Source of the DNA: Bacteroidota bacterium
Lineage (GTDB): Bacteria > Bacteroidota > Bacteroidia > AKYH767-A > 2013-40CM-41-45
Assembly (NCBI GenBank): GCA_031417555.1
Contig: JANOVV010000028.1
Location: 9,914 to 73,913, forward strand
Direction: 5' to 3'
Length of the DNA stretch: 64,000 bases
Position 1 is the stretch's first letter, and each line of letters starts with the position of its first letter. Of this stretch, positions 31,086-63,250 are shown in pieces. A model generated the notes under the pieces. It ran no database searches. It saw nothing but the letters and a program-made list of their open reading frames with translations, and was not told the origin of the DNA. A program made the translations under genes and the position numbers.

Positions 31086-31152
31086 TAAAGTTGGGGCAAT
31101 TAGAAGCTTATTATGTTATATAATTATCATGAATGATTACATTATTCACACA
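31086..31152 (-). promoter_or_regulatory. Island promoter module, copy 1 (csbD)
   Basis: Plus-strand TTA cores at 31116 and 31137 (21 bp apart); -7 box CAACTTTA at 31086-31093 (offset 30). Confidence 0.8.
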
Positions 31153-31267
31153 TTGTTTTAAGTGGTTTTTAAATTAGCCCTTTACTAGTAATTAATACGG
31201 GGAAATAATATAAATTTCAATGTGTTATTTCGCAGAAAAAGCTCTTATTGTTGATTAACAGGTACTA

Positions 31268-31819
31268 TTATTTTCCTAAATGATTTTCTAATTTTAAATT
31301 TATTTCTTTGAGAAGTATAAATTGTTTTTCCTGAGTTTCAAAAAGTGTTTTAATTTGCTCTTCAAGTAATAGATCCATTTTTTGTTGTAAGCTTCTGATT
31401 TGCATTTCTGCTTTTAGGTTTATCAGATAATCATTTTCACCTCTTTTTCTGTCTTTTTCTTCTTGTCTGTTTTGACTCATCATTATGATTGGTGCTTGCA
31501 AAGCAGCTAAGCATGATAATATCAGATTCATTAATATAAAAGGATAAGGGTCGAATTTTAAATATCCTACAGCAATTGCATTGAAAATTATCCATAGTGT
31601 TAAAATAATACCAAATATTATAATGAATTTCCAGCTACCACCAAACCGGGCAACTTTATCGGATATTTTTTGTCCTTCAGTAAGTATTTCTTGTGGTGGA
31701 TTCAACAGATTTTGAACAATCAGTTTTTCTGCTTTAATAGTTTCGTTTACAATTTCATGTAACTTATTAAGTTGATTATTTTCATCATTCAAAAGTTGAT
31801 CAATTTCTTTATTGTCCAT
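31268..31819 (-). CDS. DUF1003 membrane protein
   Basis: DKVARFGGSW.FI, FDPYPFILMNL and QAPIIMMSQNRQ motifs. Confidence 0.9.
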   Translation of the reverse strand: MDNKEIDQLLNDENNQLNKLHEIVNETIKAEKLIVQNLLNPPQEILTEGQKISDKVARFGGSWKFIIIFGIILTLWIIFNAIAVGYLKFDPYPFILMNLILSCLAALQAPIIMMSQNRQEEKDRKRGENDYLINLKAEMQIRSLQQKMDLLLEEQIKTLFETQEKQFILLKEINLKLENHLGK

Positions 31820-31895
31820 TTTTTATTTTATTATTTTAGGGTCGGTGTAATTAATCTAATTACTATTTATAGTTAATTTAGCGAATTGATAGAAA

Positions 31896-31931
31896 CACAA
31901 AAACCCGTTTCGAATTGAAACAGGTTTTGTG
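31896..31931. terminator. Probable intrinsic terminator
   Basis: Imperfect inverted repeat CACAAAAACCCGTTTC...GAAACAGGTTTTGTG just downstream of the 31973-32656 gene. Confidence 0.65.
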
Positions 31932-31972
31932 CTTAAACAGGAGTACTTATATCAATTTAGAATTTCTTAAAA

Positions 31973-32656
31973 TTAAAATAGAAATGATATTCCCAGATAA
32001 CCTGAATATGTTTTAATCTTGGTTTGGTCAACTACATAATAAGTGTCTTTTACAACTGTTTTATTATTGTCGCTTATATCTATTAATCCAAGTACGCCCC
32101 GGAATCCTAATCCCAGCCGAAATGTTTGAGCATCATTTAAGCCGAAATCAATTCCTGCTCCATATGCTACGCCAATGTCACTTTTTTTAACTGAAAGTAC
32201 CGCTTGAGAGCTGTAAGTGCCATCTCCGCCGGTTGAATTAACGCTGCTTCCAACACTTAACCCAATTTGAGGACCTGCAACAATATTTAAATTTACCGGG
32301 TTTGACTTTCCTGTATTTAGAGAGAACAGCAAGGGTATGTTTATGTATTTTAAATTAATTTCCCTTTCAACATCCATTTCCTTGTATTTTTGTGAAATTG
32401 AACTATAAATTATTTCACCTTGAATTCCAACATGGTCTGTAAAATTAAATCCAAGAAAAGCGCCAACTCCATAACCAAGTGTTGCTTGACCTTTCACAGT
32501 TCCGCCTGATGAAGTTTTCATTTCAAAAGAGGATATGGTTGGCATATAGCGTAAACCAAATTCAACTTTTTTTTGTGCATTAGCATTTAATGTAAATGCA
32601 AATAATAAAATTACTAAAGAAATGCGGTTCATAATATCGTTTTTTAAATTGTTCAT
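31973..32656 (-). CDS. Outer-membrane beta-barrel (porin-family) protein
   Basis: Signal peptide, YINIPLL and AGPQIG motifs, alternating beta-strands and terminal Phe. Confidence 0.8.
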   Translation of the reverse strand: MNNLKNDIMNRISLVILLFAFTLNANAQKKVEFGLRYMPTISSFEMKTSSGGTVKGQATLGYGVGAFLGFNFTDHVGIQGEIIYSSISQKYKEMDVEREINLKYINIPLLFSLNTGKSNPVNLNIVAGPQIGLSVGSSVNSTGGDGTYSSQAVLSVKKSDIGVAYGAGIDFGLNDAQTFRLGLGFRGVLGLIDISDNNKTVVKDTYYVVDQTKIKTYSGYLGISFLF

Positions 32657-32676
32657 TTTATTTTAATTTATAAATA

Positions 32677-32743
32677 CAAATTTGCAACCTTTGAATTTAT
32701 ATAGTGTTACATAACTATTGAAATAAGTTACATTATTCTCACT
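32677..32743 (-). promoter_or_regulatory. Island promoter module, copy 2
   Basis: Cores at 32707 and 32728; -7 box CAAATTTG at 32677 (offset 30). Confidence 0.85.
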
Positions 32744-32881
32744 ATACTGTAATTTTCTTTCTATATTTATTTTGCAAATTTTCACAATGTATTTTATTTG
32801 CCATTTTAATTAAGTAGAAAATAAGTGTAATCATGATTATTTATTTCTGATGAAATTATTTTAAACTTTATAGTCTTTTTA

Positions 32882-33466
32882 TTATTGAAAGTAAACCTTA
32901 GCGCCAATACCAAAAAAGAATATATCAGTTATGGAAAGAGACTTCCAGTTATTGTGACCTACATAACTATTAAAGTAAAGTTCATTGGTATTTGTTTCAA
33001 AATAGATTGAGATTTTTTTCACACGTTTTGTGTTTACGTTATAGGATGCCTGTGTGCTTAGAAAAATATGAAAGCGAGTACTATTCGTCCAATTGTAATA
33101 TTGTTCTTCATATTGATCAGGCCATTTTATATGAAGATTGTGTCCGAAATTTTGGGTAATAAAAAAACCTGTTTGAATTGGTTCGAAACTTATAGTATTA
33201 TTTACCTGAATTTTAATTGGATTGTAAATAAACTTTAATCCAATTGTATTAATATTTCCACCAACAAATTTTGGTGTGAAACCATAAACAAATCCTAACT
33301 CAATTTTTTCATTGTTGGTTTGCCTGAAATATCCTGCAGACAACCAGCCAATACTGCCGGCATATTGCAGGGATAATGCTGCAGTTGGAAATATTTTTGT
33401 TTTCTTCTCTTCCTGAGCGAAAAGAATATGACTGGTAAGTAAAAAGAGGATGATAGTTGTTTTCAA
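32882..33466 (-). CDS. Hypothetical exported protein, probable beta-barrel
   Basis: Signal peptide, QYAGSIG motif and aromatic C-terminal strand. Overlaps the stop of the upstream metallophosphoesterase by 4 bp. Confidence 0.65.
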   Translation of the reverse strand: MKTTIILFLLTSHILFAQEEKKTKIFPTAALSLQYAGSIGWLSAGYFRQTNNEKIELGFVYGFTPKFVGGNINTIGLKFIYNPIKIQVNNTISFEPIQTGFFITQNFGHNLHIKWPDQYEEQYYNWTNSTRFHIFLSTQASYNVNTKRVKKISIYFETNTNELYFNSYVGHNNWKSLSITDIFFFGIGAKVYFQ

Positions 33467-34329
33467 TATGTAATTAGTTCTTTAATAATAGTTCCATGTA
33501 TTAATTTTATAATATAACATTCTGTTTTTTGAACACCGCTGCTATTTATGTAAAGAACTGCATCGTTGTTGTAGTATCTTTCACTTGGATCAACGTGATG
33601 CCCATGAAGTGATAATATAAATTCTGAATGTGATCCAAAAAGATTCATATATTCGTTTACTAAATTTGGATCAAAGTCGGTGCTCCAGGGTGGGATATGT
33701 GATGCACCAATAAACCATTCTGCTGTTGTGTCGTTAAGTTGTTCGGTAAGCCAGTCTATATGCGGAACAACTCCGGAAAAATTATATTCACGGCTATTAT
33801 CATCGTGACATAAAAATTTATTTCTTTTATAGGTAAAGGAAAAATTTTTTGGACCAAACATTTCTGTATAAACATCAGATCCCCGGGATGTTAAATCATG
33901 ATTTCCAATGACACTTATATAAGGGATATTTAATTTTTCAAGTCTTTCATGAATCCATAAAAACTCTTGTAGCAACCCAAAATCAGATATATCGCCATCA
34001 AGAAGTAAAAAATCAATGTTTGTATATTGATTAGCTTTCTCTACCAGATCATCAAGCCTGTCATAAAACCTTTGTGAATCACCTGTAAATAAAAAAGTAA
34101 CTGTATCATCTGAAATTGATTCTTTCGAAAGTAATTCTTCTATATTTTTCGCATTTAAATTGGTTGGACTATCAGAGTTTTTAATTTGAACCGGATTTAA
34201 TTCGAATTTATTGCAGGAAATAATTGATAATAACCCACTGGCAATAAATATTTTTATAAAAATAGAGTATATGTAATATGAATTTACATTCTTTATTTTA
34301 TTTTGAGCTTCAGGTTTCATAAATAGCAT
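33463..34329 (-). CDS. Calcineurin-like metallophosphoesterase, probable lipoprotein
   Basis: GDSQ, GDISD, GNHD, HIPP and HGH motifs; lipobox-like IISC. Confidence 0.85.
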   Translation of the reverse strand: MLFMKPEAQNKIKNVNSYYIYSIFIKIFIASGLLSIISCNKFELNPVQIKNSDSPTNLNAKNIEELLSKESISDDTVTFLFTGDSQRFYDRLDDLVEKANQYTNIDFLLLDGDISDFGLLQEFLWIHERLEKLNIPYISVIGNHDLTSRGSDVYTEMFGPKNFSFTYKRNKFLCHDDNSREYNFSGVVPHIDWLTEQLNDTTAEWFIGASHIPPWSTDFDPNLVNEYMNLFGSHSEFILSLHGHHVDPSERYYNNDAVLYINSSGVQKTECYIIKLIHGTIIKELITY

Positions 34330-34358
34330 TATTTAAAATGGCCAATCATTTTGGTATA

Positions 34359-34423
34359 CAAATGTTCTATTAATTTATCAAAGAATATTACATAATATTT
34401 ATAAAAAATTATAACATTCCACT
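34359..34423 (-). promoter_or_regulatory. Island promoter module, copy 3
   Basis: Cores at 34388 and 34409; -7 box AACATTTG at 34359 (offset 29). Confidence 0.7.
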
Positions 34424-34465
34424 ATGGTAGTCAGATTATCAAAGTTCATTAATTTTAAAATAATT

Positions 34466-34873: not shown

Positions 34874-34898
34874 TTATTTAAGATTAGCAATATTTTTA

Positions 34899-35357: not shown

Positions 35358-35369
35358 TTTATTTAATTT

Positions 35370-36980: not shown

Positions 36981-37024
36981 TTGAAAAATATAATGCTAAA
37001 TGAAATTTTTAAAATTTAAAAAAA

Positions 37025-37050
37025 CAAATTCCCGTGTGAGCGGGAATTTG
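37025..37050. terminator. Probable intrinsic terminator
   Basis: Hairpin CAAATTCCCG-tgtgag-CGGGAATTTG, followed by a T-run on the minus strand. Confidence 0.75.
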
Positions 37051-37059
37051 TGAAATATT

Positions 37060-37404
37060 TTACATATTTCCCTTTTGATTTTTTTGATTATCTGATCTGC
37101 CATTTTGTTGTTGAGATTTAGAATCTCCTGATTTTTTAGAGACAGTTGTTACTTCTTCTTCAGAAGAATTTTCCTCTCGTTCATCAGAATCCTGAACATC
37201 AGTATTAGTTCTACCTTGAGATGAAGAGGAACCCTGACGTTCTTGATTACCTTGTTGATTACTTTTTTGTGAGCCTTGGCCATTGTCGCGATTTGCCATT
37301 GGGTTATTTGGATTGGTTTCTTTTTTGTTGCCATCCTGCGAAGAAGATTGATTTGACTTGTTATCAGATTGCTGATTACGTTGGTCATTTTGATTTTTTT
37401 CCAT
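37060..37404 (-). CDS. Low-complexity hydrophilic (Q/N/S/D/E/K-rich) protein
   Basis: 114 aa with almost no hydrophobic residues, preceded by promoter module copy 4. Confidence 0.75.
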   Translation of the reverse strand: MEKNQNDQRNQQSDNKSNQSSSQDGNKKETNPNNPMANRDNGQGSQKSNQQGNQERQGSSSSQGRTNTDVQDSDEREENSSEEEVTTVSKKSGDSKSQQQNGRSDNQKNQKGNM

Positions 37405-37443
37405 TTTAATTTTTGTTTTAATTGTGAATTAATAATTACACAA

Positions 37444-37508
37444 CAAAGGTGAAAATATATGCTGTGATTAAGTTACATAACTATATCAAAAAGTTGTATG
37501 ATTCACTT
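37444..37508 (-). promoter_or_regulatory. Island promoter module, copy 4
   Basis: Cores at 37473 and 37494; -7 box CACCTTTG at 37444 (offset 29). Confidence 0.8.
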
Positions 37509-37851: not shown

Positions 37852-38286
37852 TTAAAATATATTTTCAACTAATAAATTATTTTCATTTTTTTCTTTTCGT
37901 AAAAAAATAAATTCTTCGCGAATTTTATTTGCAATTTCTGCGCGTGACAGTTTATTATTTTCACAGTAAACCTTTAAATTTAATTGTTCACAAAACAATT
38001 TGTGCAATAATGGAGTATTTTCGAATTGTTTTAGTTTGAAATTATTTTTTAATTGGGACGGGAGGAGTTGTTCGTGTGCGATGTGAAAGACTAGTTTGAT
38101 AAGCGTTACACAAAGTGATGGATGTTTTTGTTCAATTAAATTTTGATTAAAAACTTCTTGAAATGTTCTGAATAGAATTTGTTCTGCTATTTCAGTAGTT
38201 GGTGAAATTTCAAGTGCTATCCCATAGACTAAGGGACTGTATGAATCGTAGATTTTTTCAAATTTTATCTCAGATTGCGATTTCAT
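37852..38286 (-). CDS. Hypothetical protein with a degenerate ECF-sigma region-2-like N-terminus
   Basis: FEKIYDSYSPLVYGIAL...AEQIL..TF resembles the start of ECF sigma factors; the remainder is divergent. Confidence 0.55.
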   Translation of the reverse strand: MKSQSEIKFEKIYDSYSPLVYGIALEISPTTEIAEQILFRTFQEVFNQNLIEQKHPSLCVTLIKLVFHIAHEQLLPSQLKNNFKLKQFENTPLLHKLFCEQLNLKVYCENNKLSRAEIANKIREEFIFLRKEKNENNLLVENIF

Positions 38287-39314: not shown

Positions 39315-39593
39315 TTAAATAGTTGTACTCTTACCATCTTTTTTATATTCTTCATATTTATTTCTGCCTTTTGAAACAAGATTTTCTGCTTCTTCTTTCG
39401 AGTTCTCATAGCTTTTAGTGGCTGAGTTTACCGCATTTTCAATTTTTTCTTTAATTGATCCGGCAAATTCTTCACCTTTATCTAGAATTTGTTTTCTTGT
39501 TTTTGATCCTTTATCCGGAGCAAATAAAATTCCTAATATTGCACCTGCTGCAACTCCTGCTAATAATCCTAATAATACTTTACCTGATTTCAT
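39315..39593 (-). CDS. ytxH: YtxH-domain general stress protein
   Basis: GLLAGVAAGAILGILFAPDKGSKTRKQI. Confidence 0.9.
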   Translation of the reverse strand: MKSGKVLLGLLAGVAAGAILGILFAPDKGSKTRKQILDKGEEFAGSIKEKIENAVNSATKSYENSKEEAENLVSKGRNKYEEYKKDGKSTTI

Positions 39594-39712: not shown

Positions 39713-39778
39713 TAAAGATCGTTTTGAATAAAATGATTCAGGTTATATAACTATCTGAAAAAGTTATATAATTCCTGC
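39713..39778 (-). promoter_or_regulatory. Island promoter module, copy 5 (ytxH)
   Basis: Cores at 39743 and 39764; -7 box GATCTTTA at 39713 (offset 30). Confidence 0.8.
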
Positions 39779-43112: not shown

Positions 43113-43178
43113 CAAAAATGAATAATAAATTGTGTTTATATATTACACAACTTTATAGATATGTTACATGATTTACTG
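43113..43178 (-). promoter_or_regulatory. Island promoter module, copy 6
   Basis: Cores at 43143 and 43164; -7 box CATTTTTG at 43113 (offset 30). Confidence 0.8.
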
Positions 43179-43295: not shown

Positions 43296-43679
43296 TTAAA
43301 TTTCATAACCGCTTTTAATTACAGTCGAAATCATTTTGAATTGTTCATTGGCATTAAAACAATGAGGTGAATGTGCCGGTATTACTATCCCGTTTCCTGA
43401 TTTTAATTGAAACTTATTTTTATTGATAGTGACTTCTGCAGATCCATCTATTATTTGCACATAGATATCGAATGGCGAAGTTTTTTCTTCCAATTCTTCA
43501 CCTGTATCAAAAGAGGAAACAGTAATATTCCCTGTTGTTTTTTTTATAATAGTCCTGCTTACAACTGCATTGGGAACATATTCAATTATTTCAACAACAA
43601 TATGAATCTTGGTTTTTTCTAATTCAGAAGCAGCTGAATGATTGTTCTTATTTGAAATTACTTTATTAACTTTTTCCAT
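43296..43679 (-). CDS. Cupin-domain protein
   Basis: SFDTGEEL, QIIDGSAEV.I and G..IVIPAH.PH motifs. Confidence 0.8.
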   Translation of the reverse strand: MEKVNKVISNKNNHSAASELEKTKIHIVVEIIEYVPNAVVSRTIIKKTTGNITVSSFDTGEELEEKTSPFDIYVQIIDGSAEVTINKNKFQLKSGNGIVIPAHSPHCFNANEQFKMISTVIKSGYEI

Positions 43680-43704: not shown

Positions 43705-43770
43705 CTAAGGTCAGGGTAATAGGTAGTAAATACTTTATATAACTTTAGAAAAAAGTTACACCATTCACAT
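43705..43770 (-). promoter_or_regulatory. Island promoter module, copy 7 (cupin)
   Basis: Cores at 43735 and 43756; -7 box GACCTTAG at 43705 (offset 30). Confidence 0.8.
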
Positions 43771-43810: not shown

Positions 43811-44371
43811 TTAAAGATTTTCTAAAACTGTACGCTTTTTGTGTTTTAGTGATTTAAAAAAAGAAGGAGTAAGTCCTGTAATCTTTTTAAATTGTGTAGA
43901 AAGATGTGCAACACTGCTATAATGCAACTTGTAAGCAATTTCAGAAAGGTTTAATTCATTATAGATGATCAACTCTTTAACTCTTTCAATTTTATGAATA
44001 ATAATAAAATGCTCAATGGTTGTACCTTTGACTTCAGAAAAAAGATTGGAGAGATAGCTGTAATTATGTTTTAATTTTTCGCTTAAATAATCTGAAAAAC
44101 TTATTTTTGGTATTTCATCTGTGTAGTGTACTAATTCTATGATAATATTTTTAATTTTTTCAACAAGGATAGCTCTTTGATCATCCATCAATTCTAATCC
44201 GGATTGAAGTAAATTATTTTTTAATTCATCATGTTCTTCAGTTGATATATCATCCATAATTTCAACTTCACCTAATTCAACTATGTTGTGTTTTAAGTTT
44301 AATTTTTCCAACTCTGCTTTTACAAGCATTTTGCAGCGAAGACTAACCATGTTCTTAATATATAGTTTCAC
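43811..44371 (-). CDS. AraC-family regulator with an HMA-like N-terminal domain (paralog 1, GTG start)
   Basis: KLYIKNMVSLRC N-terminus; C-terminal LSEIAYKLHYSSVAHLSTQFKKITGLTPS. Confidence 0.9.
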   Translation of the reverse strand: MKLYIKNMVSLRCKMLVKAELEKLNLKHNIVELGEVEIMDDISTEEHDELKNNLLQSGLELMDDQRAILVEKIKNIIIELVHYTDEIPKISFSDYLSEKLKHNYSYLSNLFSEVKGTTIEHFIIIHKIERVKELIIYNELNLSEIAYKLHYSSVAHLSTQFKKITGLTPSFFKSLKHKKRTVLENL

Positions 44372-44650
44372 TTTTTTTTAAATCTAATGGTTGAAAAATT
44401 ACTTCTGCCTAAATGTTAAAATTAAATAATTTGTGTGAATAAAAAAAACTAACTCCTAATTTTGAACATAATCCCCATTTTAATTCAAAGAACAATGCTA
44501 TTTATATTAAAATATACGACATTGTTTTAAATTAGTTTAATATTATTCGCGATTTGTCTGTTTAAATTGTTAAATATTAATTTTATTAGACTTATTTTTG
44601 ATTTTTTATACAACTATTTTAAAATAGAATTATTCACTTACTTATATTCA

Positions 44651-45765: not shown

Positions 45766-47034
45766 TTATTTGGTTTGTATTCCTAAATCAGACGGAGAGG
45801 CATTTAGCTGCTTTAAAGCTACTAAAATCTTTTTTCCTTTATGTGAATGATTTCGATAATCAGAAATTATTTCGTGGTTTCTATAAAAGTCAATAACATT
45901 TTTTTTTAAACCCATATCTATATTTTTAAATTTGGCTCTCTGCAGCTTCATTAATAAATTATAATATGTTTTATCTGCAAGTTTATATTCGCCTAGTATG
46001 GTTTCCTGACCTGTATCTAAATCGATATTAGTATATGAAATATCTCGAGTTCTTAGTCTTTTTATTGAACCATTATAATGATAAAGTATAGAGTCATAGC
46101 TCTGTTCAAATAATTTTTCACATTCTTCATTCGGTAATTTTGGTTTGAATTTAGACACAGGACCATATTTTGGCAGTACACCAATAATAAGTGAAATAAA
46201 AATTGACTGAATCCGGGGCTGCTTAAATTCTTTCTTATAATTTATTTTATCACTTTTATATAAATAATTTTTCTTAGTTGCTAGAGGATTTAATTTTGTT
46301 ATAAACGAATTCTTTATTTTCCAAGCGTCTTTAGTTAATTCAGGAATAATTGTTTTAACAGCAAATCTGAATACTTCAATAGCAACCGGAAGGTTCCTGA
46401 AAATATTTTTTAAGTGTAAACCATATGTTTTAAAAAATGCCCGTTCTAAAACAGTATCGCTTACTGCAAAGCCAATGAAGTTATGATAAGAATCCGGTTT
46501 ATAATTTCCTCTTGCCGTTTGTAACACATCGAAGCCGAACTCTATTCTTGCATGTTGATCGTGCCCCTTCTCATAGGGTACTTTGCTGCCATATTTTTTC
46601 CGTAATTTTGGAAACATAATAGCTACTGCTTTGTTAGTCGCTAATGAGTGTCCATATTGGTCTGCTTCGTAATGGCATAGAACGCCCAATGCAAAAGAAT
46701 ATTCATTAAAATTTCGTGATTCTTCAAGTAGGGCAGTTATAAAATCACCACTTCGTACATAATGCACAAGGTTACTAAATAACATACTTCCCATCGGGCA
46801 ATAACCTATGTCAGGAATTATTGCTCCTCTGTATGCATACGTGTGTGCTTTCTTTAATTCTTCTTCAGTAATGTTTGGATATTTATGTTTTAATAATGGG
46901 ACGATTGATTTATCCCAAGATGCATCAATTATGGCCTCATGGGAAAGTAAAGCGTATGAAAAAGAGGATAGAGGTCGATAAATAGTAAATATTAAGATTA
47001 TAAATAGAAATCTTTTAAAACCTGAAATAGTCAT
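45766..47034 (-). CDS. Zinc-dependent phospholipase C-family protein
   Basis: Signal peptide followed by Y..LSHEAIID, PDIGY, HY, HY.AD..GH and H.R.EFGFD motifs. Confidence 0.8.
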   Translation of the reverse strand: MTISGFKRFLFIILIFTIYRPLSSFSYALLSHEAIIDASWDKSIVPLLKHKYPNITEEELKKAHTYAYRGAIIPDIGYCPMGSMLFSNLVHYVRSGDFITALLEESRNFNEYSFALGVLCHYEADQYGHSLATNKAVAIMFPKLRKKYGSKVPYEKGHDQHARIEFGFDVLQTARGNYKPDSYHNFIGFAVSDTVLERAFFKTYGLHLKNIFRNLPVAIEVFRFAVKTIIPELTKDAWKIKNSFITKLNPLATKKNYLYKSDKINYKKEFKQPRIQSIFISLIIGVLPKYGPVSKFKPKLPNEECEKLFEQSYDSILYHYNGSIKRLRTRDISYTNIDLDTGQETILGEYKLADKTYYNLLMKLQRAKFKNIDMGLKKNVIDFYRNHEIISDYRNHSHKGKKILVALKQLNASPSDLGIQTK

Positions 47035-47459: not shown

Positions 47460-47525
47460 CAAAAATGCAGAAGTATATTTTATGAAGTGTTACATAACAA
47501 TTTCTTTTATTTACATTTTTTACAT
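47460..47525 (-). promoter_or_regulatory. Island promoter module, copy 8
   Basis: Cores at 47490 and 47511; -7 box CATTTTTG at 47460 (offset 30). Confidence 0.75.
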
Positions 47526-51034: not shown

Positions 51035-51100
51035 TAAAATTGGAAAATATCTGACGTTTGTCAGTTACACAACATTATGATAATGTTACATTATTCACAC
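51035..51100 (-). promoter_or_regulatory. Island promoter module, copy 9 (GH130-GT4 operon)
   Basis: Cores at 51065 and 51086; -7 box CAATTTTA at 51035 (offset 30). Confidence 0.85.
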
Positions 51101-52637: not shown

Positions 52638-52675
52638 AAATTTTATATTTAAAATAGCAGAGTTGATATACTAAG

Positions 52676-52740
52676 CAAAGCTCGCCATTTTGCTCAACAC
52701 AGATTTACATAACTCTGTTAATAATTTACATCATTCACAC
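52676..52740 (-). promoter_or_regulatory. Island promoter module, copy 10
   Basis: Cores at 52705 and 52726; -7 box GAGCTTTG at 52676 (offset 29). Confidence 0.85.
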
Positions 52741-53453: not shown

Positions 53454-53470
53454 ATTGGATATTTAAAAAT

Positions 53471-53535
53471 CAAAGTTACTTTACCTGGAAATTATAATGT
53501 TATAAAAATTTTGAAATAAGTTACATTATTCCCAC
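53471..53535 (-). promoter_or_regulatory. Island promoter module, copy 11
   Basis: Cores at 53500 and 53521; -7 box TAACTTTG at 53471 (offset 29). Confidence 0.8.
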
Positions 53536-56976: not shown

Positions 56977-56983
56977 ATTTAAT

Positions 56984-57418
56984 TTACATCCTCTCCATAT
57001 ACCAATTTAATTCTTTCTCCATTTTTTTGTAACGGAAAATTGTTGTAATAATTTTTCGTAAACGCATGAAGGCTGTTTCGCTTTTCACAACGTAGTCAAA
57101 AGCCCTGTGATGCATACAATTTACAGCGACTTCAATTTTATCCTGAGAGGATAACATAATAACAGGAATATCCTGATTATATGCTTTTATTTTATCCAAT
57201 GTTTCCATTCCATTCATTGCATTTTTATCGATACCATCGAGATGGTAATCTAGAATAATTACATCAGGACTGTGTGATAAATTTTCCATGCACAGTTCAC
57301 CTGTGGCAAATGTTTCGATTTCGAAATCGGCATTTTCTAAAAATTCTATTTCTAGTGATTTTAAAAAGACTGCATCATCATCTACTAAAAAGAGTTTAAT
57401 CTTACTTTCGTTTTTCAT
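56984..57418 (-). CDS. Single-domain response regulator (different subtype)
   Basis: FLVDDD, ILDYHL, LSSQD and DYVVKSET motifs; short C-terminal tail. Confidence 0.9.
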   Translation of the reverse strand: MKNESKIKLFLVDDDAVFLKSLEIEFLENADFEIETFATGELCMENLSHSPDVIILDYHLDGIDKNAMNGMETLDKIKAYNQDIPVIMLSSQDKIEVAVNCMHHRAFDYVVKSETAFMRLRKIITTIFRYKKMEKELNWYMERM

Positions 57419-59781
57419 TTATTTGTATTCTTTAATATATTATATTCATCTTCCAATTCTTTACAAGCTTGCATGCAAACTTTTTCAAGTTGTAATACTA
57501 AATCATTTATGTTTTCTGTTTGAAGTTGCGTATTTGCATATTCATGTACTTTTTTTGCTATATTTTCAAAATCTGTATGAATTCCCATAATTGAAAAAGA
57601 TGGAATCATTTTATGGGCCGCAGCTTGTAAAGAATTCCAATCTTTATTCTGCAGGCTTTGTTTCATATTATCAATTAATGATGGCGTTTGTTTTAAATAA
57701 AGACTAATCATTTCCATTATTAAAGCCGGATTTGATTTTGTATGTTTATTCAAATAGTTTAAATTGATATATTTTGCTATATTATCTTGTTTGCTTTTAT
57801 TTTGATTGTCCTGATTTATTTTTGTTTCAACTAATATAGATGTAGGTTTTCTTACTAAACTAATTATTTTGTTATACAACAATTCTTCGTTGACGGGTTT
57901 TGAAACATAATCGTTCATCCCAATCGCTTTGCATTTCGCTAAATCTACTGTTGTTACATCAGCTGTTAAAGCGATAATAGGAATTTTGGATTTCATTGTA
58001 TTCCTAATATATTCGGTGGCTTCAAATCCATTCATTTCAGGCATCTGTAAATCCATTAAAATAATGTCGTACGAATTAATTTTTAGTTTTTCAATAGCTA
58101 TCTTACCATTTTCTGCAATATCACGATCAAAACCTAAATCATCCAATATTGTTTTCATTAATAATTGATTAAGCGGAATGTCTTCAACAACTAATATTTT
58201 TACAGTTCTAATTTCTTTATTTATTTCTTCAGGTTCAATTTCTAAATTGACTTCTTCATTTGTTTTTTTAAAAGTCAAAGTAAAACTAAAAGTTGAACCT
58301 TCTTTAATCTTACTTTTTACATGGATAATTCCTCCTTGTGGTTCTACCAGTTGTTTCACAATGGCAAGCCCTAAGCCGGTTCCACCATATAATCGCGAGG
58401 TGCCGCTGGATGCTTGTTGAAAGTTTTCAAAAATATTTTCTAATTTATTTTCGGCTATTCCAATTCCTGTATCTGAAACCATAAATTCAATGGTGGCTTT
58501 TTCATTATTTTCACTAACCAGTCGGACGCTAACGGTTATTTTTCCACTGCTTGTAAATTTTACTGCATTACTAATCAGATTTAATATAATCTGATGCAAT
58601 CGTACCGGATCGCCTATAAGTACCTCCGGAATATTTTTGTCGTATTCTTTAACAAGTTCAAGATTCTTCTCCTGGATTTTTGTATCAAATAAATGAAGCA
58701 TTGCAGATATAGATAGCTCTAATTTAAAAGGGATTGCTTCAAATGACATTTTTCCTGAATCTACTTTGGCAAGATCAAGAATGTCGTTAATCAGAACTAT
58801 TAAAGCATCGCCACTCATTTTTATGGCAGTTAAATATTCTTTTTGTTTGGCCGTCAGGTCGGTTTTCAATACAACTTTTGTAAATCCTATTATTGCATTC
58901 ATCGGAGTGCGAATTTCATGACTCATGTTGGAAAGGAATTGCTGTTTGGCTTGAACTGCATTTTCTGCAATTATAGTTGCGCTTTCTGCATTAATCTTTG
59001 CTTTTTCGGCAATTTCAGTTGCTAATTCAGCAAATACTCTGGCTTCGATTAATTCTTTTTCTATTCTTTTTTGTTCTGTAATTACCCGGGCTACAACGAC
59101 AGCACCAAGTACTTTCCCTCTGTCGTCTTTATAAACGGATCCATTAAAAAGTACATCGGTTAGTTTTCCATCCATCATTGTTAATGGAAAGTCTTCTACA
59201 AAACCATTTGCAAAAACCTGTTTATAACCTTCGCGGGCTTTTTCCGGTTCTGTAAAATACCTGGAGAAATCTGAACCAATTAGTTTCTCTCGGGATACAT
59301 GTGTTATTTTTACTGAAGCATTATTCATATCAGAAATTTTTCCTTCTGAATTAATTGTAAAAAGAGGATCGCGACTTGCTTCAATAAGGCTTAATGAATA
59401 TTTTGAAAGTAATTTTTGTGTTGTAACATCTCTTGCGACAATCACAACACCGAGAACATTTCCTTTATCATCTTTGTAAACAGACCCATTGAATAATACA
59501 TCTGTCAATTTTCCATTTGTATGACGGAGTGTAAGTGGAGAATCAGTTACAGAACCATTAGCAAACACTTCCTGGTAAACTTCTCTTGCTTTTTGAGGCT
59601 CAGTAAAATAATCGAAAAAATCAGTACCGGTAAGTTTCTCACGGCTCATTCCGGTAATATTTGCCAATGCCTGATTCATGTCGGTTATTTTTCCATGAGT
59701 ATTTATAGTAACCAATGGATCTAAACTGGCTTCTATTAAACTTCTCGCATACTGCGATTCAGGCATATTATTATTTTCCAT
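57415..59781 (-). CDS. Soluble hybrid kinase: PAS-PAS-HisKA-HATPase-REC-Hpt
   Basis: Two similar PAS repeats (SLIEAS.DPL.TIN), H-box SHEIRTPM, GGTGLGL, receiver LMDLQMP and Hpt-like AAHKMIPS; no TM helix. Confidence 0.93.
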   Translation of the reverse strand: MENNNMPESQYARSLIEASLDPLVTINTHGKITDMNQALANITGMSREKLTGTDFFDYFTEPQKAREVYQEVFANGSVTDSPLTLRHTNGKLTDVLFNGSVYKDDKGNVLGVVIVARDVTTQKLLSKYSLSLIEASRDPLFTINSEGKISDMNNASVKITHVSREKLIGSDFSRYFTEPEKAREGYKQVFANGFVEDFPLTMMDGKLTDVLFNGSVYKDDRGKVLGAVVVARVITEQKRIEKELIEARVFAELATEIAEKAKINAESATIIAENAVQAKQQFLSNMSHEIRTPMNAIIGFTKVVLKTDLTAKQKEYLTAIKMSGDALIVLINDILDLAKVDSGKMSFEAIPFKLELSISAMLHLFDTKIQEKNLELVKEYDKNIPEVLIGDPVRLHQIILNLISNAVKFTSSGKITVSVRLVSENNEKATIEFMVSDTGIGIAENKLENIFENFQQASSGTSRLYGGTGLGLAIVKQLVEPQGGIIHVKSKIKEGSTFSFTLTFKKTNEEVNLEIEPEEINKEIRTVKILVVEDIPLNQLLMKTILDDLGFDRDIAENGKIAIEKLKINSYDIILMDLQMPEMNGFEATEYIRNTMKSKIPIIALTADVTTVDLAKCKAIGMNDYVSKPVNEELLYNKIISLVRKPTSILVETKINQDNQNKSKQDNIAKYINLNYLNKHTKSNPALIMEMISLYLKQTPSLIDNMKQSLQNKDWNSLQAAAHKMIPSFSIMGIHTDFENIAKKVHEYANTQLQTENINDLVLQLEKVCMQACKELEDEYNILKNTNK

Positions 59782-59810
59782 TTATTCCGATACTATTTAT
59801 TGGGAGTAAA

Positions 59811-60398
59811 TCAATTATTATTTATTTGAATCTGATTGCCTATTTCTTCTATTGGCATTCGCTTTTTATCTTTTAATTTCTTGAAGTGCGATGGAGAAAG
59901 ACCTGTAACTTTTTTAAATTGATTTGAAAGATGAGCAACACTACTGTAATTCATTTTCCATGCAATTTCTGTAATATTTAATTCTCCGTAAATCATTAAT
60001 TCTTTTATCCGTTCAATTTTATGTGAAATGATAAATTGCTCTATAGTCGTTCCTTGTACTTCTGAAAATAAATTCGATAAATAGGTATAATCATGATTTA
60101 ATTTTTTACTCAAAAAATCAGAAAAATTGGTTTTTATTATTTCATCAGTATGATGAACCATTTCGATAATTACATTTTTAATTTTTTCGATTAATACTGC
60201 GCGTTTGTCATCCATCAATTCTAGACCGGAATTCAGCAATACAACCTTCATTTCTTCGCGTTGTTCAATAGAAATATTTTCCATGATTTCAACTTCGCCT
60301 AAATCAACAACAATAAAATGTAATCCAAGACTTTTTAATGCTTCTTTAACCGCCAATTTACAGCGATTACTGACCATGTATTTGATGTATATTTTCAA
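59811..60398 (-). CDS. AraC-family regulator with an HMA-like N-terminal domain (paralog 2, probable TTG start)
   Basis: TTG at 60398 gives MKIYIKYMVSNRC, which aligns with paralog 1. The ORF-track start at 60428 lies inside the -7 box. HTH is ITEIAWKMNYSSVAHLSNQFKKVTGLSPS. Confidence 0.9.
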   Translation of the reverse strand: MKIYIKYMVSNRCKLAVKEALKSLGLHFIVVDLGEVEIMENISIEQREEMKVVLLNSGLELMDDKRAVLIEKIKNVIIEMVHHTDEIIKTNFSDFLSKKLNHDYTYLSNLFSEVQGTTIEQFIISHKIERIKELMIYGELNITEIAWKMNYSSVAHLSNQFKKVTGLSPSHFKKLKDKKRMPIEEIGNQIQINNN

Positions 60399-60425
60399 AT
60401 GGTTCTGTTTTAATTGAGACTTGTA

Positions 60426-60491
60426 CAAATTTGTGTTTTTTAAGACCTGTAATTGTTATAGAACTTTCTTTAATTGTTACATAATTCACAC
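60426..60491 (-). promoter_or_regulatory. Island promoter module, copy 12 (AraC-phosphorelay operon)
   Basis: Cores at 60456 and 60477; -7 box CAAATTTG at 60426 (offset 30). Confidence 0.85.
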
Positions 60492-60695
60492 ATTATCAAC
60501 TAGTAAATTAAATTACCTGTTTCATAAAGCATAGGTGTTGAGTATGTTAACTTCGATTTAAAAAAGCTTAAGATTTTAGCGTTTATTTATTACAACCTTA
60601 AAAACGAAATAAATAATTTTTCTAAACAATTTTTATCCTGTTATTAATTTACAATTTAAATAGGAAAGGATGCCAATGATTAAGAATTTTCATTT

Positions 60696-60761
60696 ACAAT
60701 AATTATATAATTATTATCCTTTTATATGTAAGTAAAAGAATATAAATCATATTCACCTTAG
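60696..60761 (+). promoter_or_regulatory. Island promoter module, copy 13 (degenerate)
   Basis: TATATAA ending at 60710, ATGTAA ending at 60731 and -7 box CACCTTAG ending at 60761, giving the same 21/30 geometry. Confidence 0.6.
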
Positions 60762-60787
60762 CCAAAAAAATTGCGTAGTATAATAAA

Positions 60788-63133
60788 ATGATTCTAAAAC
60801 ATAAATTAAGAAAAATACTTTTAATAGTAATCGGTGTATTACTTATTACTTCTGTTGTAATAATTTTATTCATTTCACCAATTACTAAATATTTAATTGA
60901 AAAAAATGATGAAAAATATACTGGTAGAAAAATTACAATTGATTGGGCATACGTAAATCCTTTTACCGGCTTTGTACATTTAAAAAATATAAAAATTAAT
61001 GAATTCAAAAGTGACAGTATTTTCTTTTCTTCCAATGGACTTAGTATTAATTTTTCACTTTATAAATTATTTTCTAAAACTTATGAGATAAGTGAGCTAA
61101 CCTTGGATAAGCCTCGGGGATATATTATTCAAAATAAAAACGATTTTAATTTTAATGATATTATTAAAATGTTTTCACCCGATGAAGTTATAGATACTAC
61201 CAAACTTCCTTTGCACTTTAACATACTTAGCATAAAAATTAAGAATGGAGAATTCTATTACCACGAGCCACTAATTCCTATCAATTATTATATTAAAAAT
61301 GTAAATTTAGAAAGTACCGGTAAACGTTGGGATTCTGATTCTATAACAACTTCTATTTCATTTGTGCCTGGTATTGGAAGTGGTGAAATAAAGGGTAACA
61401 TAACTATAAATTTGAAAAACAATGACTATCATTTTGATGTTAGAATTAAAAAGTTTGATTTAAATATCATTGGGCAATATTTAAAAGATTTGACCAATTA
61501 TGGTAATTTTTCTGCAAACCTTGATGCTGATGTCAAATCAAAAGGAAATTTTAACGATCCTCAGGATGTGACCACTAAAGGGTTCATTCAGATTAATGAC
61601 TTTCATTTTGGGAAAACAAACATAAATGATTATGCATCTTTTGATAAATTATCTTTAACGATGAAAGAAATAAGTCCTAAAAATCATATTTATCTTTTTG
61701 ATTCTGTAATACTAAGTCATCCTTATTTTAAATATGAGAGATATGATTATTTGGATAATATTCAGACCATGTTTGGTGTTGATGGATCAAATCTGACTGC
61801 TGCTAATGCTAGTAATACTAAATTTAATTTGGTAATAGAAATTGCGGATTATGTTAAAATACTTGGTAGAAACTTTTTTCAAAGCTATTATCAAATTAAC
61901 AGGTTTGCTATTAATAAAGGTGATATTAAGTTTAATGATTTTTCTTTGGGTGAAAAATTTTCTGTGGATTTAAATCCATTATCTATTGTTGCAGATTCTG
62001 TCGATAAAAACCATAATCGGGCAAATGTTTTTTTTAAAACCGGCATTAAGCCATATGGTGATGCCGAAGTAAATCTCAGTATAAATCCAAAAGATACGGG
62101 AGATTTTGATATGCAATATAATCTTAAAAAATTTCCAGCATCTATGTTTAACCCGTATTTAATCTCATATACATCTTTTCCGCTTGATAGGGGAACGATT
62201 GAAGTTAACGGTACGTGGAATGTCAGAAATGGAATTATCAAAAGTGATAATCATTTGGTTATTATAGATCCTCGTGCTACTAAAAGATTGAGGAATAAAG
62301 ATGCTAAATGGATACCGTTGCCATTGATATTATCATTTATTCGTGAGCGTGGAAATGTAATCGATTATGAAATTCCAATAACCGGAAATATGAAGAATCC
62401 AAAATTCCATTTACGCGATGTGATTTTTGATTTACTTGAAAATATTTTTGTGAAACCTGCGACAACATCGTATAGGTTGCAAGTTAAAAATATTGAAACT
62501 GAAATAGAGAAATCGCTTACTTTAAAATGGGGACTTCGAAATTCTGAATTGCTTCCTACACAGGTTAAATTTTTAGAAAAAATGGCTAACTTCCTGGAGA
62601 AAAATCCTGAGTCAGGCATCGTAATATATCCTCATGTTTACACAATAAAGGAAAAAGAATATATCCTTCTTTATGAAGCAAAAAAGAGGTATTATATAGC
62701 ATCAAATAATATCGATGCTCGAATGTACAATGAACATGATTCTGAGCTTGTAGATAAGATGGCCATAAAAGATACACTTTTTGTTCAATACCTGAATAAG
62801 CAGGTAAACGATTCAATGGTATTTACAATTCAAGAAAAATGTTCCAGAGTTATCGACGAGTCGATAGTAAATGATAAGTTCAGGAAATTAAAGAAAGATA
62901 GGGAAGAAGCATTTAAAATTTACTTTAAAGAAAATGATGTTATTAAGAGAATTGAATTAAGCGAGACTGAAAATGTAATTCCTTACAATGGATTTTCATA
63001 TTATAAAATCAAATATAAAGGAGAATTACCGGAATATTTGATTGATGCTTATAAAAAAATGAACGAATTAAACGATGAGGCACCACGCGATAAATTTAAA
63101 AATTTCCGTAAAAAGGATAAGAGTGTATTATAA
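60788..63133 (+). CDS. DUF748 / AsmA-like envelope protein
   Basis: N-terminal membrane anchor, GRKI.I....VNPF.G, long beta-rich body and IDYEIPITG....PKF. Confidence 0.75.
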   Translation: MILKHKLRKILLIVIGVLLITSVVIILFISPITKYLIEKNDEKYTGRKITIDWAYVNPFTGFVHLKNIKINEFKSDSIFFSSNGLSINFSLYKLFSKTYEISELTLDKPRGYIIQNKNDFNFNDIIKMFSPDEVIDTTKLPLHFNILSIKIKNGEFYYHEPLIPINYYIKNVNLESTGKRWDSDSITTSISFVPGIGSGEIKGNITINLKNNDYHFDVRIKKFDLNIIGQYLKDLTNYGNFSANLDADVKSKGNFNDPQDVTTKGFIQINDFHFGKTNINDYASFDKLSLTMKEISPKNHIYLFDSVILSHPYFKYERYDYLDNIQTMFGVDGSNLTAANASNTKFNLVIEIADYVKILGRNFFQSYYQINRFAINKGDIKFNDFSLGEKFSVDLNPLSIVADSVDKNHNRANVFFKTGIKPYGDAEVNLSINPKDTGDFDMQYNLKKFPASMFNPYLISYTSFPLDRGTIEVNGTWNVRNGIIKSDNHLVIIDPRATKRLRNKDAKWIPLPLILSFIRERGNVIDYEIPITGNMKNPKFHLRDVIFDLLENIFVKPATTSYRLQVKNIETEIEKSLTLKWGLRNSELLPTQVKFLEKMANFLEKNPESGIVIYPHVYTIKEKEYILLYEAKKRYYIASNNIDARMYNEHDSELVDKMAIKDTLFVQYLNKQVNDSMVFTIQEKCSRVIDESIVNDKFRKLKKDREEAFKIYFKENDVIKRIELSETENVIPYNGFSYYKIKYKGELPEYLIDAYKKMNELNDEAPRDKFKNFRKKDKSVL

Positions 63134-63184
63134 TGGAATAAAATATAAGACGATTAATTCATTTTCAATAGATGAATTGCACAA

Positions 63185-63250
63185 ACGTGAATTATGTAAC
63201 TTATACCAAAAGTTTTGTAACATGCAAAACATTCTATATTCATTTCTTTG
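63185..63250 (+). promoter_or_regulatory. Island promoter module, copy 14
   Basis: GTGAATTATGTAAC-ttataccaaaa-GTTTTGTAAC; cores end at 63199 and 63220; -7 box TTTCTTTG ends at 63250. Confidence 0.85.

What the first reader, a model, noticed from the sequence alone, without database searches (positions are those of the whole stretch)
31086..63250. One oriented promoter module repeated 14 times defines a 33-kb regulon
Seen: the coding-strand consensus is about GTGAATnATGTAAC-n11-GTTATGTAAC-n20/21-[-7 box]. Plus-strand core pairs are 31116/31137, 32707/32728, 34388/34409, 37473/37494, 39743/39764, 43143/43164, 43735/43756, 47490/47511, 51065/51086, 52705/52726, 53500/53521 and 60456/60477. Two more copies are inverted in front of plus-strand genes (60710/60731 and 63199/63220). 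Core spacing is 21 bp in all 14, the distance to the -7 box is 29-30 bp, and orientation always follows the downstream gene. I did not see the module in the first 30 kb. Known: AraC/XylS activators bind direct repeats two helical turns apart that abut the -35 region; LytTR sites have similar spacing. Inference: this is the operator of the island's AraC proteins. I am not aware of a description of this motif.
Basis: partly seen in the sequence, partly recalled or inferred. Interest (0 to 1): 0.92.

Follow-up and report, generated by a model that had tools for sequence, protein, structure and literature searches.

The report
Stress-regulon promoter module of Bacteroidota
A two-part DNA signal sits in front of some two dozen stress-protection operons in this bacterium and recurs across its whole phylum next to one unusually conserved AraC-type regulator, which probably acts as a previously undescribed master switch for stress survival.

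Summary
All 14 modules lie at the stated places, in one gapless register. The cores are 21 bp apart and a TTTG-type -7 box follows 24-25 nt after the proximal AAC. Nine match a strict pattern against 0 in 100 shuffles. Two copies (34388, 60710) are weak.

The regulon is larger than reported. The genome holds 26 sites against 0 in a reversed-genome control: 20 on one contig over 51.5 kb (8 beyond the window) and 6 dispersed.

The genes behind the modules look like a general stress set: CsbD, YtxH, Dps, PA2169-type protein, OmpA, Mla, BrkB and PAP2.

The module is conserved across Bacteroidota. It stands upstream of the AraC2 ortholog in 65 of 79 loci, at a fixed distance in 57. AraC2 is 80-96% identical among its 120 best-scoring relatives. 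It has an HMA-like N-domain and shares an operon with a PAS hybrid kinase and a single-domain receiver.

Module presence follows the regulator family: 18/22, 9/50 and 2/79 genomes by falling similarity.

The AraC operator reading is supported, but binding is untested. Nine literature searches found no description.

The parts
31086..31151 (-). Module 1 (distal box, proximal box, -7 box), in front of a CsbD-like gene (30827-31012) and the 155-aa lipoprotein-like gene
   Evidence: 36.1 bits; 36.1 bits; CsbD, 2.2e-15
32677..32742 (-). Module 2, in front of the OMP beta-barrel gene (31973-32656) and the DUF1003 gene
   Evidence: (47.1 bits)
34358..34423 (-). Module 3, a weak or degenerate copy, in front of the metallophosphoesterase gene (33463-34329) and a 194-aa gene
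   Evidence: 25.4 bits; only 8.2 bits with the matrix from relatives; -7 box present
37443..37508 (-). Module 4, in front of a Q/N/S-rich 114-aa protein, a DAO-Rieske oxidoreductase, a PA2169/DUF2383 protein and a receiver-only protein
   Evidence: (39.9 bits)
39713..39778 (-). Module 5, in front of the YtxH-like gene (39315-39593), a holin-X-like membrane protein, a 138-aa protein and a 144-aa sigma-like protein
   Evidence: 38.9 bits; YtxH, 1.5e-18
43113..43178 (-). Module 6, in front of a 107-aa membrane-anchored protein, DUF3943 and PAP2
   Evidence: (34.3 bits)
43705..43770 (-). Module 7, directly behind the AraC1 stop codon and in front of the cupin gene (43296-43679)
   Evidence: (40.0 bits); same arrangement in AraC1-like loci of other genomes
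47460..47525 (-). Module 8, in front of a 64-aa ORF and the zinc phospholipase C gene (45766-47034)
   Evidence: (31.9 bits)
51035..51100 (-). Module 9, in front of the GH130 and GT1 genes
   Evidence: (40.3 bits)
52675..52740 (-). Module 10, in front of a 194-aa secreted protein and PAP2
   Evidence: (39.9 bits)
53470..53535 (-). Module 11, in front of a 70-aa ORF and a 127-aa protein
   Evidence: 42.4 bits
60426..60491 (-). Module 12, the autoregulatory copy in front of the AraC2 operon
   Evidence: 39.9 bits; orthologous position conserved in 65 of 79 loci
60696..60761 (+). Module 13, a weak or degenerate copy, in front of the DUF748/AsmA gene (60788-63133)
   Evidence: 15.1 bits; below 8 bits with the matrix from relatives; -7 box present
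63185..63250 (+). Module 14, in front of a coiled-coil protein gene (63305 to beyond the window)
   Evidence: (44.5 bits)
59811..60398 (-). AraC2: an HMA-like N-domain, a linker helix and an AraC two-HTH DNA-binding domain. Start placed at 60398 by homology (conserved [M/L]K[L/I]YIKYMVS); candidate activator
43811..44371 (-). AraC1, a paralog of AraC2 (67% identity, same architecture); it has no module upstream
57415..59781 (-). Cytoplasmic hybrid histidine kinase (PAS-PAS-HisKA-HATPase-REC-Hpt), 30 nt behind AraC2
   Evidence: found in 67 of 80 AraC2 loci at median 72% identity
56984..57418 (-). Single-domain receiver protein (144 aa); its start overlaps the kinase stop
   Evidence: found in 65 of 80 AraC2 loci at median 80% identity
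53605..56976 (-). Three further receiver-only genes and a second histidine kinase (633 aa), completing the seven-gene AraC2 operon
   Evidence: kinase relatives in 37 of 80 loci

Best explanation
The module is the operator of a positively autoregulated AraC-family activator: AraC2, and probably also its paralog AraC1. It turns weak housekeeping-sigma promoters into a stress-inducible regulon.

Shown by sequence. Each module has three parts: a 19-bp distal block AAtGTGTGAATtATGTAAC, a proximal block AaAGTTaTGTAAC exactly 21 bp downstream, and a -7 box cAyCTTTG at a fixed distance. No -33 TTTG is conserved.

Inferred. The sigma-A -7 box is reported at -12 to -5. On that basis the proximal repeat lies at about -44 to -34, over the -33 position. 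The distal block lies at about -73 to -55. Two regulator protomers would bind head to tail. The distal site would be the strong anchor, and the proximal one would replace the missing -33 contact, as in class II activation by AraC, XylS and RhaS.

Inferred from gene order only. AraC2 is transcribed with a cytoplasmic PAS-PAS hybrid kinase and a single-domain receiver. A phosphorelay therefore probably controls the activator, and autoregulation amplifies the response.

Output. In this genome about 26 promoters are affected. They serve genes for DNA protection (Dps), small general stress proteins (CsbD, YtxH, PA2169-type, hydrophilic disordered proteins) and envelope and lipid remodelling (OmpA, Mla, AsmA-like, PAP2, phospholipase C, BrkB). 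In relatives the module also serves universal stress proteins and secreted ice-binding proteins.
For: - Anatomy: gapless alignment of 14 window sites. The same consensus emerges from 187 sites in 80 loci of other Bacteroidota, with a fixed -7 box and no -33 TTTG.
- Specificity: 26 sites at 16 bits or more in the 3.97-Mb genome, against 0 in the reversed genome. By my ORF map, 25 of the 26 are intergenic and lie 24-215 nt upstream of a same-strand ORF; the 26th overlaps only a 66-aa ORF.
- Link to the regulator: a module lies upstream of the AraC2 ortholog in 65 of 79 loci, at 105-117 nt in 57. Modules lie directly behind AraC1-like genes in L102, L105, L106, L110, L093 and L094 and in G127, G129, G071 and G063.
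- Phyletic pattern in 151 genomes: the module was found in 18 of 22 genomes with an AraC2 match at E <= 1e-60, in 9 of 50 at 1e-35 to 1e-60, and in 2 of 79 with no match at 1e-35. Those two carry full-length members at 36-37% identity.
- The regulator has the AraC two-HTH domain (HTH_18 6.6e-17; Foldseek to AraT, YesN, MarA and SoxS).
- Only AraC2, the hybrid kinase and the receiver are widely conserved around it: 80, 67 and 65 of 80 loci.
- The two DNA-reading helices are almost identical in AraC1 and AraC2.
- The -7 box position comes from passages of PMC9723704.
- Regulon content.
Against: - No binding, transcription start or expression data exist for this organism. It is a metagenome-assembled genome.
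- Linkage and co-occurrence would also arise if AraC2 were merely the most conserved target of another factor.
- Four of 22 genomes with a close AraC2 relative (G039, G139, G013, G081) showed no module at E <= 0.001, and L111 (G139) shows none within 6 kb. Fourteen of 79 AraC2 loci lack an upstream site of 20 bits or more.
- The family is much wider than the module: 186 of 401 genomes have a member at E <= 1e-35, but the strict pattern is in only 22 of 401. Many paralogs must therefore read something else. One example is the third paralog on C27, which has no module on its contig.
- AraC1 has no module of its own.
- The relatives' sites were first picked with the window's matrix, so the consensus leans towards it.
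- The class II geometry rests on a -7 box position taken from another species.
Confidence: 0.7

Rival explanations
1. Another transcription factor encoded elsewhere binds the repeats, for example a LytTR- or OmpR-type response regulator fed by the island's kinases. The AraC2 operon would then be only its most conserved target.
For: A 21-bp period of short direct repeats next to the -35 region also fits LytTR operators (recalled knowledge). The island holds two kinases and six receiver-only proteins with no output domain. AraC1 lacks a module. Four of 22 genomes with a close AraC2 relative show no module.
Against: The genome's seven LytTR genes all lie on contigs without modules, and none is on C28. 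No other DNA-binding protein is conserved within 10 kb of AraC2 in 80 loci. Module presence follows AraC2 similarity in three steps. Modules also sit directly beside distant paralogs of 36-51% identity.
Confidence: 0.15
2. The cores are read by an alternative ECF-type sigma factor. TGTAAC would serve as a -35 element, as in some ECF promoters. The small sigma-like protein at 37852-38286 could be that factor.
For: TGTAAC resembles ECF -35 elements (recalled knowledge). The 144-aa protein in the module-5 operon has language-model neighbours annotated with sigma-70 regions 2 and 4, at scores 0.92-0.93. This is a lead only.
Against: No conserved CGT-type -10 element lies 16-17 nt after either core. 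The conserved downstream element is a sigma-A-type box 21 nt after the proximal core. Both cores share the extended word tATGTAAC, which points to one protein reading both. Pfam finds no sigma domain in the 144-aa protein even at E <= 5. That protein is found in 0 of 80 AraC2 loci, and its own gene lies behind a module.
Confidence: 0.05
3. The module is a dispersed repeat or mobile-element remnant with no regulatory role.
For: There are many copies in one AT-rich stretch: 30.8% G+C against 35-36% in the flanks.
Against: Only the boxes are conserved, while spacers and flanks vary freely. All strong copies are intergenic and point at the next gene. Orthologous positions are kept across orders. 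Rfam finds no match.
Confidence: 0.01

Closest known systems
AraC/XylS-family class II activators with direct-repeat operators (AraC I1-I2, XylS at Pm, RhaS/RhaR, MelR)
   Same: The regulator has a two-HTH AraC DNA-binding domain. The operator has two direct half-sites 21 bp apart, with the promoter-proximal one over the -35/-33 position. The distal site is better conserved than the proximal one. The known operator details are recalled, not taken from a call.
   Different: The N-terminal domain is not the cupin-type AraC ligand domain. It has an HMA-like ferredoxin fold, with CopZ, Atx1 and HAH1 as best PDB matches. The promoter is the Bacteroidota sigma-A type (-7 TAnnTTTG), not -35/-10. The regulon is a stress set of about 26 promoters, not a sugar or aromatic pathway. 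The regulator is 80-96% identical among its 120 best-scoring relatives, which include Flavobacterium and Prolixibacteraceae, and is encoded with a phosphorelay.
Hybrid two-component systems of Bacteroides (sensor kinase, receiver and AraC domain in one polypeptide)
   Same: The same three functions occur together in the same phylum. The AraC domain matches a PDB chain named 'hybrid two-component system protein' (12aw, E 1.5e-6).
   Different: Here the functions are split over three genes: AraC2, hybrid kinase with Hpt, and a separate receiver. The kinase has cytoplasmic PAS domains rather than a periplasmic sugar sensor. The targets are stress genes, not polysaccharide utilisation loci.
General stress regulons of other phyla (RpoS in Gammaproteobacteria, SigB in Bacillota, PhyR-NepR-EcfG in Alphaproteobacteria)
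   Same: The output overlaps: CsbD, YtxH, Dps, Usp, PA2169/YciE-like four-helix proteins, OmpA-type and membrane proteins. Single-domain receivers and PAS kinases lie upstream, as in the alphaproteobacterial system. These comparisons are recalled.
   Different: The switch is an activator working with the housekeeping sigma, not an alternative sigma factor. Stress induction itself is not shown here.
LytTR operators (AgrA, ComE, AlgR)
   Same: Short direct repeats with a period of about 21 bp just upstream of the -35 region (recalled).
   Different: No LytTR gene lies on any module-bearing contig or in the conserved neighbourhood. The distal block is 19 bp long, which fits a two-HTH reader.

Membership tests
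AraC/XylS family (regulator) | C-terminal domain of about 100 aa with two helix-turn-helix motifs | tested here: met
   HTH_18 at 6.6e-17 (AraC2) and 1.1e-14 (AraC1), with HTH_AraC above cut-off. AlphaFold model at pLDDT 83.5 with seven helices at 92-179. Foldseek to AraT, YesN, MarA, SoxS and AdpA at TM 0.66-0.80 on the target.
AraC/XylS family (regulator) | N-terminal cupin-type AraC ligand-binding and dimerisation domain (typical of AraC itself, not required for the family) | tested here: not met
   No AraC_binding hit in AraC1 or AraC2. The N-domain folds as beta-alpha-beta-beta-alpha-beta and best matches HMA copper chaperones. Distant members keep the CxxC motif (NMVCPRC), with an HMA hit at E 0.038, below cut-off.
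AraC/XylS-type class II operator | Two direct half-sites about 21 bp apart, with the proximal one overlapping the -35 (here -33) element | tested here: met
   21 bp in 14 of 14 window sites and in the 187-site consensus. No -33 TTTG is conserved, and the proximal core ends 21 nt before the -7 box. Positions relative to the start are inferred from the -7 box position in PMC9723704.
AraC/XylS-type class II operator | The regulator binds the half-sites and activates transcription | not testable with these tools
   Only linkage (65 of 79 loci) and co-occurrence (18/22, 9/50, 2/79) are available.
Bacteroidota sigma-A promoter | -7 box TAnnTTTG | tested here: met
   cAyCTTTG at a fixed distance: A at 0.90 and TTTG at 0.98, 0.99, 0.84 and 0.63 in 187 sites. 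The first T of the consensus is not kept.
Bacteroidota sigma-A promoter | -33 element TTTG (recalled from the literature, not from a call) | tested here: not met
   The columns about 19 nt upstream of the -7 box read AAC-a and belong to the proximal repeat. This is what an activator-dependent promoter would show.
LytTR operator | A LytTR-domain regulator encoded with or near its operator | tested here: not met
   Seven PF04397 genes lie on C75, C128, C78, C29, C99 and C114 (two). None is on C28, C56, C69, C70, C81 or C87.
ECF sigma promoter | -35 AAC-type element followed after 16-17 nt by a CGT-type -10 element | tested here: not met
   The columns 16-17 nt after the proximal core carry under 0.4 bits.
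General stress regulon | Members are known general stress proteins | tested here: met
   CsbD 2.2e-15 and YtxH 1.5e-18. Dps/ferritin-like 2.5e-26. PA2169 family 8.2e-24. In relatives, Usp 1e-27 and ice-binding 1.5e-75.
General stress regulon | Induction by several unrelated stresses or by growth arrest | not testable with these tools
   No RNA run is listed for this DNA.
Bacteroides hybrid two-component system | Kinase, receiver and AraC domain fused in one protein | tested here: not met
   Three separate ORFs. The split is kept in 65-67 of 80 loci.

The most novel reading that the evidence does not exclude
Bacteroidota, which lack RpoS, SigB and EcfG, run a phylum-wide general stress and dormancy response through a dedicated activator rather than an alternative sigma factor. 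The activator is an HMA-like AraC protein, autoregulated and driven by a PAS hybrid kinase and a single-domain receiver. It reads the 21-bp-period module and switches on from one to about 25 promoters per genome. The targets serve DNA protection, hydrophilic protectant proteins, outer-membrane lipid remodelling and, in cold habitats, secreted ice-binding proteins.
Probability: 0.5. Interest if true: 0.9.

Novelty: new variant of a known kind. Interest (0 to 1): 0.8.

Why it matters
As far as I know (recalled), and in the nine searches run here, no regulator of a general stress response has been described for Bacteroidota. The phylum dominates soils, sediments, oceans and guts.

This work gives three things to test directly. 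The first is a defined cis-element that can be searched in any genome. The second is a named candidate regulator with an unusual sensor domain. The third is its probable signalling partners. Together they make the question testable in any tractable Flavobacterium.

The element also predicts regulon membership for many proteins of unknown function. In addition, it offers a compact, portable inducible promoter design for Bacteroidota genetics.

Tried and rejected
- Rfam scan of the window at gathering threshold: 0 matches, so the module is not a described RNA motif such as Flavo-1.
- Expression and start sites: no RNA holder is listed for this DNA, only sediment metagenome DNA runs.
- Complex prediction of AraC2 with the 144-aa receiver returned 'no answer' with score 0.00. 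It counts neither for nor against binding.
- Literature: nine full-text searches and passages of PMC9723704 gave no description of the motif, the regulator or a Bacteroidota general stress regulator. That paper's supplementary promoter tables could hold starts for orthologous promoters, but they were closed.
- CRP/FNR-like reading of the distal block (TGTGA-N6-...): rejected because the block is not palindromic and its second half repeats 21 bp downstream.
- Covariation between the first recognition helix and the distal box (GAAT against GATA or GGATAA): suggestive in AraC1-like loci, but not clean, because genomes of family f24 with a single family member carry both box types. It is not used as evidence.
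- Horizontally acquired island: only a lower G+C was seen. Clustering of modules around the regulator also occurs in relatives, so the word 'island' is used loosely.
- Pfam at relaxed thresholds gave nothing usable for nine unknown regulon proteins.
- My first degenerate patterns P2-P4 had wrong spacer lengths and were discarded.

Full report
**Observation**

I extracted the 14 stated sites and oriented each with its downstream gene. They align without any gap as GTGTGAAT-N-ATGTAAC-N11-GTTATGTAAC.
- The two cores are 21 bp apart in 14 of 14.
- A TTTG-like box starts 24-25 nt after the proximal AAC in 14 of 14.
- A strict pattern with up to 3 mismatches finds 9 window sites, against none in 100 dinucleotide shuffles.
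- A 40-column matrix from the 14 sites (31 bits) was run over the whole 3.97-Mb assembly (138 contigs; the window is C28:9914-73913). Hits are almost confined to C28:41025-92574, plus a few other contigs, and none lies in the first 30 kb of the window.

**Size of the regulon**

I re-estimated the matrix from sites in other genomes. The own genome then has 26 sites at 16 bits or more, against 0 in the reversed-genome control, with a clean gap down to 9 bits.
- Twelve sites are in the window.
- Eight follow on the same contig beyond the window end.
- Six lie on C56, C69 (two), C87, C81 and C70.
They keep the -7 box and may be decayed or low-affinity sites.

By my own greedy ORF map, 27 of the 32 hits at 14 bits or more are intergenic. 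The strong ones lie 24-215 nt upstream of a same-strand ORF. The exception is C28:92535, which has no ORF of 60 aa or more within 1.3 kb. A sequence-only covariance model finds 25 copies in this genome at E <= 0.001.

**What the genes are**

Pfam and NCBIfam give the following behind the modules:
- small stress proteins: CsbD-like, YtxH-like, PA2169/DUF2383 four-helix protein, DUF1003, and Q/N/S-rich and other hydrophilic small proteins;
- DNA and iron: Dps, and topoisomerase IB on C56;
- envelope and lipid: a holin-X-like membrane protein, OMP beta-barrels, OmpA, MlaEFD, a DUF748/AsmA protein, two PAP2 phosphatases, DUF3943, zinc phospholipase C, BrkB and an AI-2E-family transporter;
- enzymes: three metallophosphoesterases, GT1 plus GH130, and a DAO-Rieske oxidoreductase.

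From recalled knowledge, CsbD, YtxH and Dps are classic members of the SigB and RpoS regulons. The set therefore looks like a general stress or dormancy programme with a strong envelope-remodelling arm.

**The regulators**

Two paralogs, AraC1 and AraC2, are 67% identical and carry HTH_18/HTH_AraC domains.

AraC2 is very strongly conserved. More than 8000 database proteins match it, and the best 120 are 80-100% identical. They come from Flavobacterium, Prolixibacteraceae and other Bacteroidota.

An AlphaFold model (pLDDT 83.5) shows three parts: a beta-alpha-beta-beta-alpha-beta N-domain (residues 1-62), a linker helix, and the seven-helix AraC DNA-binding domain.
- Foldseek matches the C-terminal half to AraT, YesN, MarA and SoxS.
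- The N-domain, modelled alone, matches HMA copper chaperones best: CopZ, Atx1 and HAH1, at E 5e-3 to 6e-2 and TM about 0.6-0.7 on the target.
- Distant family members keep the HMA-type CxxC motif (NMVCPRC), whereas AraC1 and AraC2 have SxxC. Pfam gives HMA only at E 0.038. The fold assignment is therefore supported, and homology is likely but not proven.

**Comparative evidence for the link**

A scan of one genome per species found at least 543 loci that encode a relative, and the best 80 were kept.
- The window-derived matrix finds 188 sites of 25 bits or more in these loci (187 after trimming).
- Their consensus is AAtGTGTGAATtATGTAACTTtTTt..AaAGTTaTGTAACact, followed at a fixed distance by cAyCTTTG.
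- In 65 of 79 loci with enough upstream sequence, a same-strand site of 20 bits or more lies within 400 nt of the AraC2 ortholog. In 57 it starts 105-117 nt before the conserved MVS codon. This is the signature of conserved autoregulation.
- Only three neighbours are widely conserved: the PAS-PAS hybrid kinase (67 of 80 loci, median 72% identity), the 144-aa receiver (65 of 80, 80%) and, less often, the second kinase (37 of 80).
- In loci of the AraC1-like branch (60-67% identity), and even of 36-51% relatives, the module lies directly behind the regulator gene, as it does behind AraC1 in the window.

**Phyletic pattern**

In 401 genomes sampled across the phylum, the strict pattern occurs in 22. 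The reversed control pattern gives a single hit in one genome. Full-length family members at E <= 1e-35 occur in 186.

With the more sensitive model on 151 of these genomes, 29 have a module. Crossing this gives:

| Best AraC2 match in the genome | Genomes with a module |
|---|---|
| E <= 1e-60 | 18 of 22 |
| E 1e-35 to 1e-60 | 9 of 50 |
| No match at 1e-35 | 2 of 79 |

The two in the last row (G015, G020) carry full-length members at 36-37% identity. The exceptions in the first row are G039, G139, G013 and G081. Related genomes are not independent, so I give counts and no test. Module numbers per genome range from 1 to 25.

**Mechanism**

Passages of PMC9723704 place the sigma-A box TAnnTTTG at -12 to -5. 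Applying this here:
- the start falls about 5 nt after the TTTG;
- the proximal repeat lies at about -44 to -34;
- the distal 19-bp block lies at about -73 to -55.

The -33 TTTG (recalled) is not conserved, because those columns belong to the proximal repeat. This is the geometry of class II activation by AraC-family dimers on direct repeats (recalled: AraC I1-I2, XylS, RhaS).

The 19-bp distal block fits one two-HTH protomer, reading GTGTGAA and TGTAAC about one helical turn apart. The proximal site keeps only the TGTAAC half well, which suggests a strong distal anchor and a weaker proximal site filled cooperatively.

The recognition helices of AraC1 and AraC2 are nearly identical, so either or both may bind. 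Control by the co-transcribed phosphorelay is inferred from gene order alone.

**Rivals**

- LytTR regulator: seven LytTR genes exist, but none is on a module-bearing contig.
- ECF sigma reading TGTAAC as a -35 element: there is no -10 element at the right distance. The only sigma-like lead, a 144-aa protein behind module 5, has no Pfam hit and is not conserved near AraC2. It rests on language-model neighbours at 0.92-0.93.
- Passive repeat: ruled out by free variation outside the boxes, strict orientation and orthologous conservation.

**Regulon in relatives**

The ORFs behind the 188 sites are:
- AraC2 (65);
- secreted ice-binding proteins with a type IX secretion signal (a cluster of 17);
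- CsbD (10);
- the 107-aa membrane-anchored protein (9);
- OmpA (7);
- YtxH, cupin and Usp (3 each), and Dps (2);
- many unknowns.

This again points to stress, cold and desiccation survival.

**Limits**

- There are no experimental data.
- The ORF maps are my own.
- The 80 loci are the best-scoring ones and so are biased towards close AraC2 orthologs.
- The relatives' sites were first found with the window's matrix.
- Paper supplements and subscription journals could not be searched.

**Verdict**

This is a real, highly specific promoter module that is conserved across the phylum. It is very probably the operator of a new HMA-like branch of the AraC family and controls a stress regulon. I found no description of it.

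Noticed in passing
window 37852-38286 (-): A 144-aa protein in the module-5 operon. By eye its N-terminus resembles sigma-70 region 2, and its language-model neighbours are annotated with sigma-70 r2/r4 (scores 0.92-0.93). Pfam finds nothing even at E <= 5. It may be a truncated sigma-like or anti-sigma-like factor downstream in the cascade.
   Followed up: partly
L019:15325-18834 and 16 further sites in L009, L019, L032 and others: In relatives, the largest group of module-driven genes not found in this genome encodes large secreted ice-binding-like proteins (PF11999) with Ig repeats and a type IX secretion signal.
   Followed up: partly
L093:6369-6623, L094, L095, L096 (genomes G020, G015, G025, G010): Distant members of the regulator family (36-42% identity) keep a CxxC motif (NMVCPRC) at the place of the HMA metal site. 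AraC1 and AraC2 have SxxC with only the second cysteine invariant. This hints at a lost or changed metal or redox input.
   Followed up: partly
L004:2832-3242 and L005:2427-2837 (G000 contig C69): Two paralogous 136-aa cysteine-rich proteins with a signal or membrane segment, about 21 kb apart, each behind its own module. The distal box of these modules reads GTGATT instead of GTGAAT. No family match.
   Followed up: no
L003:2830-3957 (G000 contig C56): A bacterial type IB topoisomerase gene lies behind one of the strongest dispersed modules (36.7 bits; 41.3 bits).
   Followed up: no
L070:3591-3699: One relative carries three tandem copies of the repeat unit AATTATGTAACTTTTATTAAT at the same 21-bp period, that is, three half-sites in a row.
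   Followed up: no
window 37060-37404 (-); L001:18076-18312; L006:2485-2802: Several module-driven genes encode small, highly hydrophilic, low-complexity proteins rich in Q, N, S, E and K. They resemble the disordered hydrophilins linked to desiccation tolerance. No family match.
   Followed up: no
C28:41000-92600 (window 31087 onward): The module cluster has 30.8% G+C, against 36.4% and 35.3% in the flanking parts of the contig and 34.6% for the genome.
   Followed up: no
G000:C27:22081-22614 (-): A third full-length paralog of the regulator (52% identity to AraC2) lies on a contig without any module. It presumably reads a different site.
   Followed up: no
window 44372-44566: The divergent intergenic region between AraC1 and a metallophosphoesterase gene has no module. 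AraC1 therefore seems to be expressed independently of the regulon it may control.
   Followed up: partly
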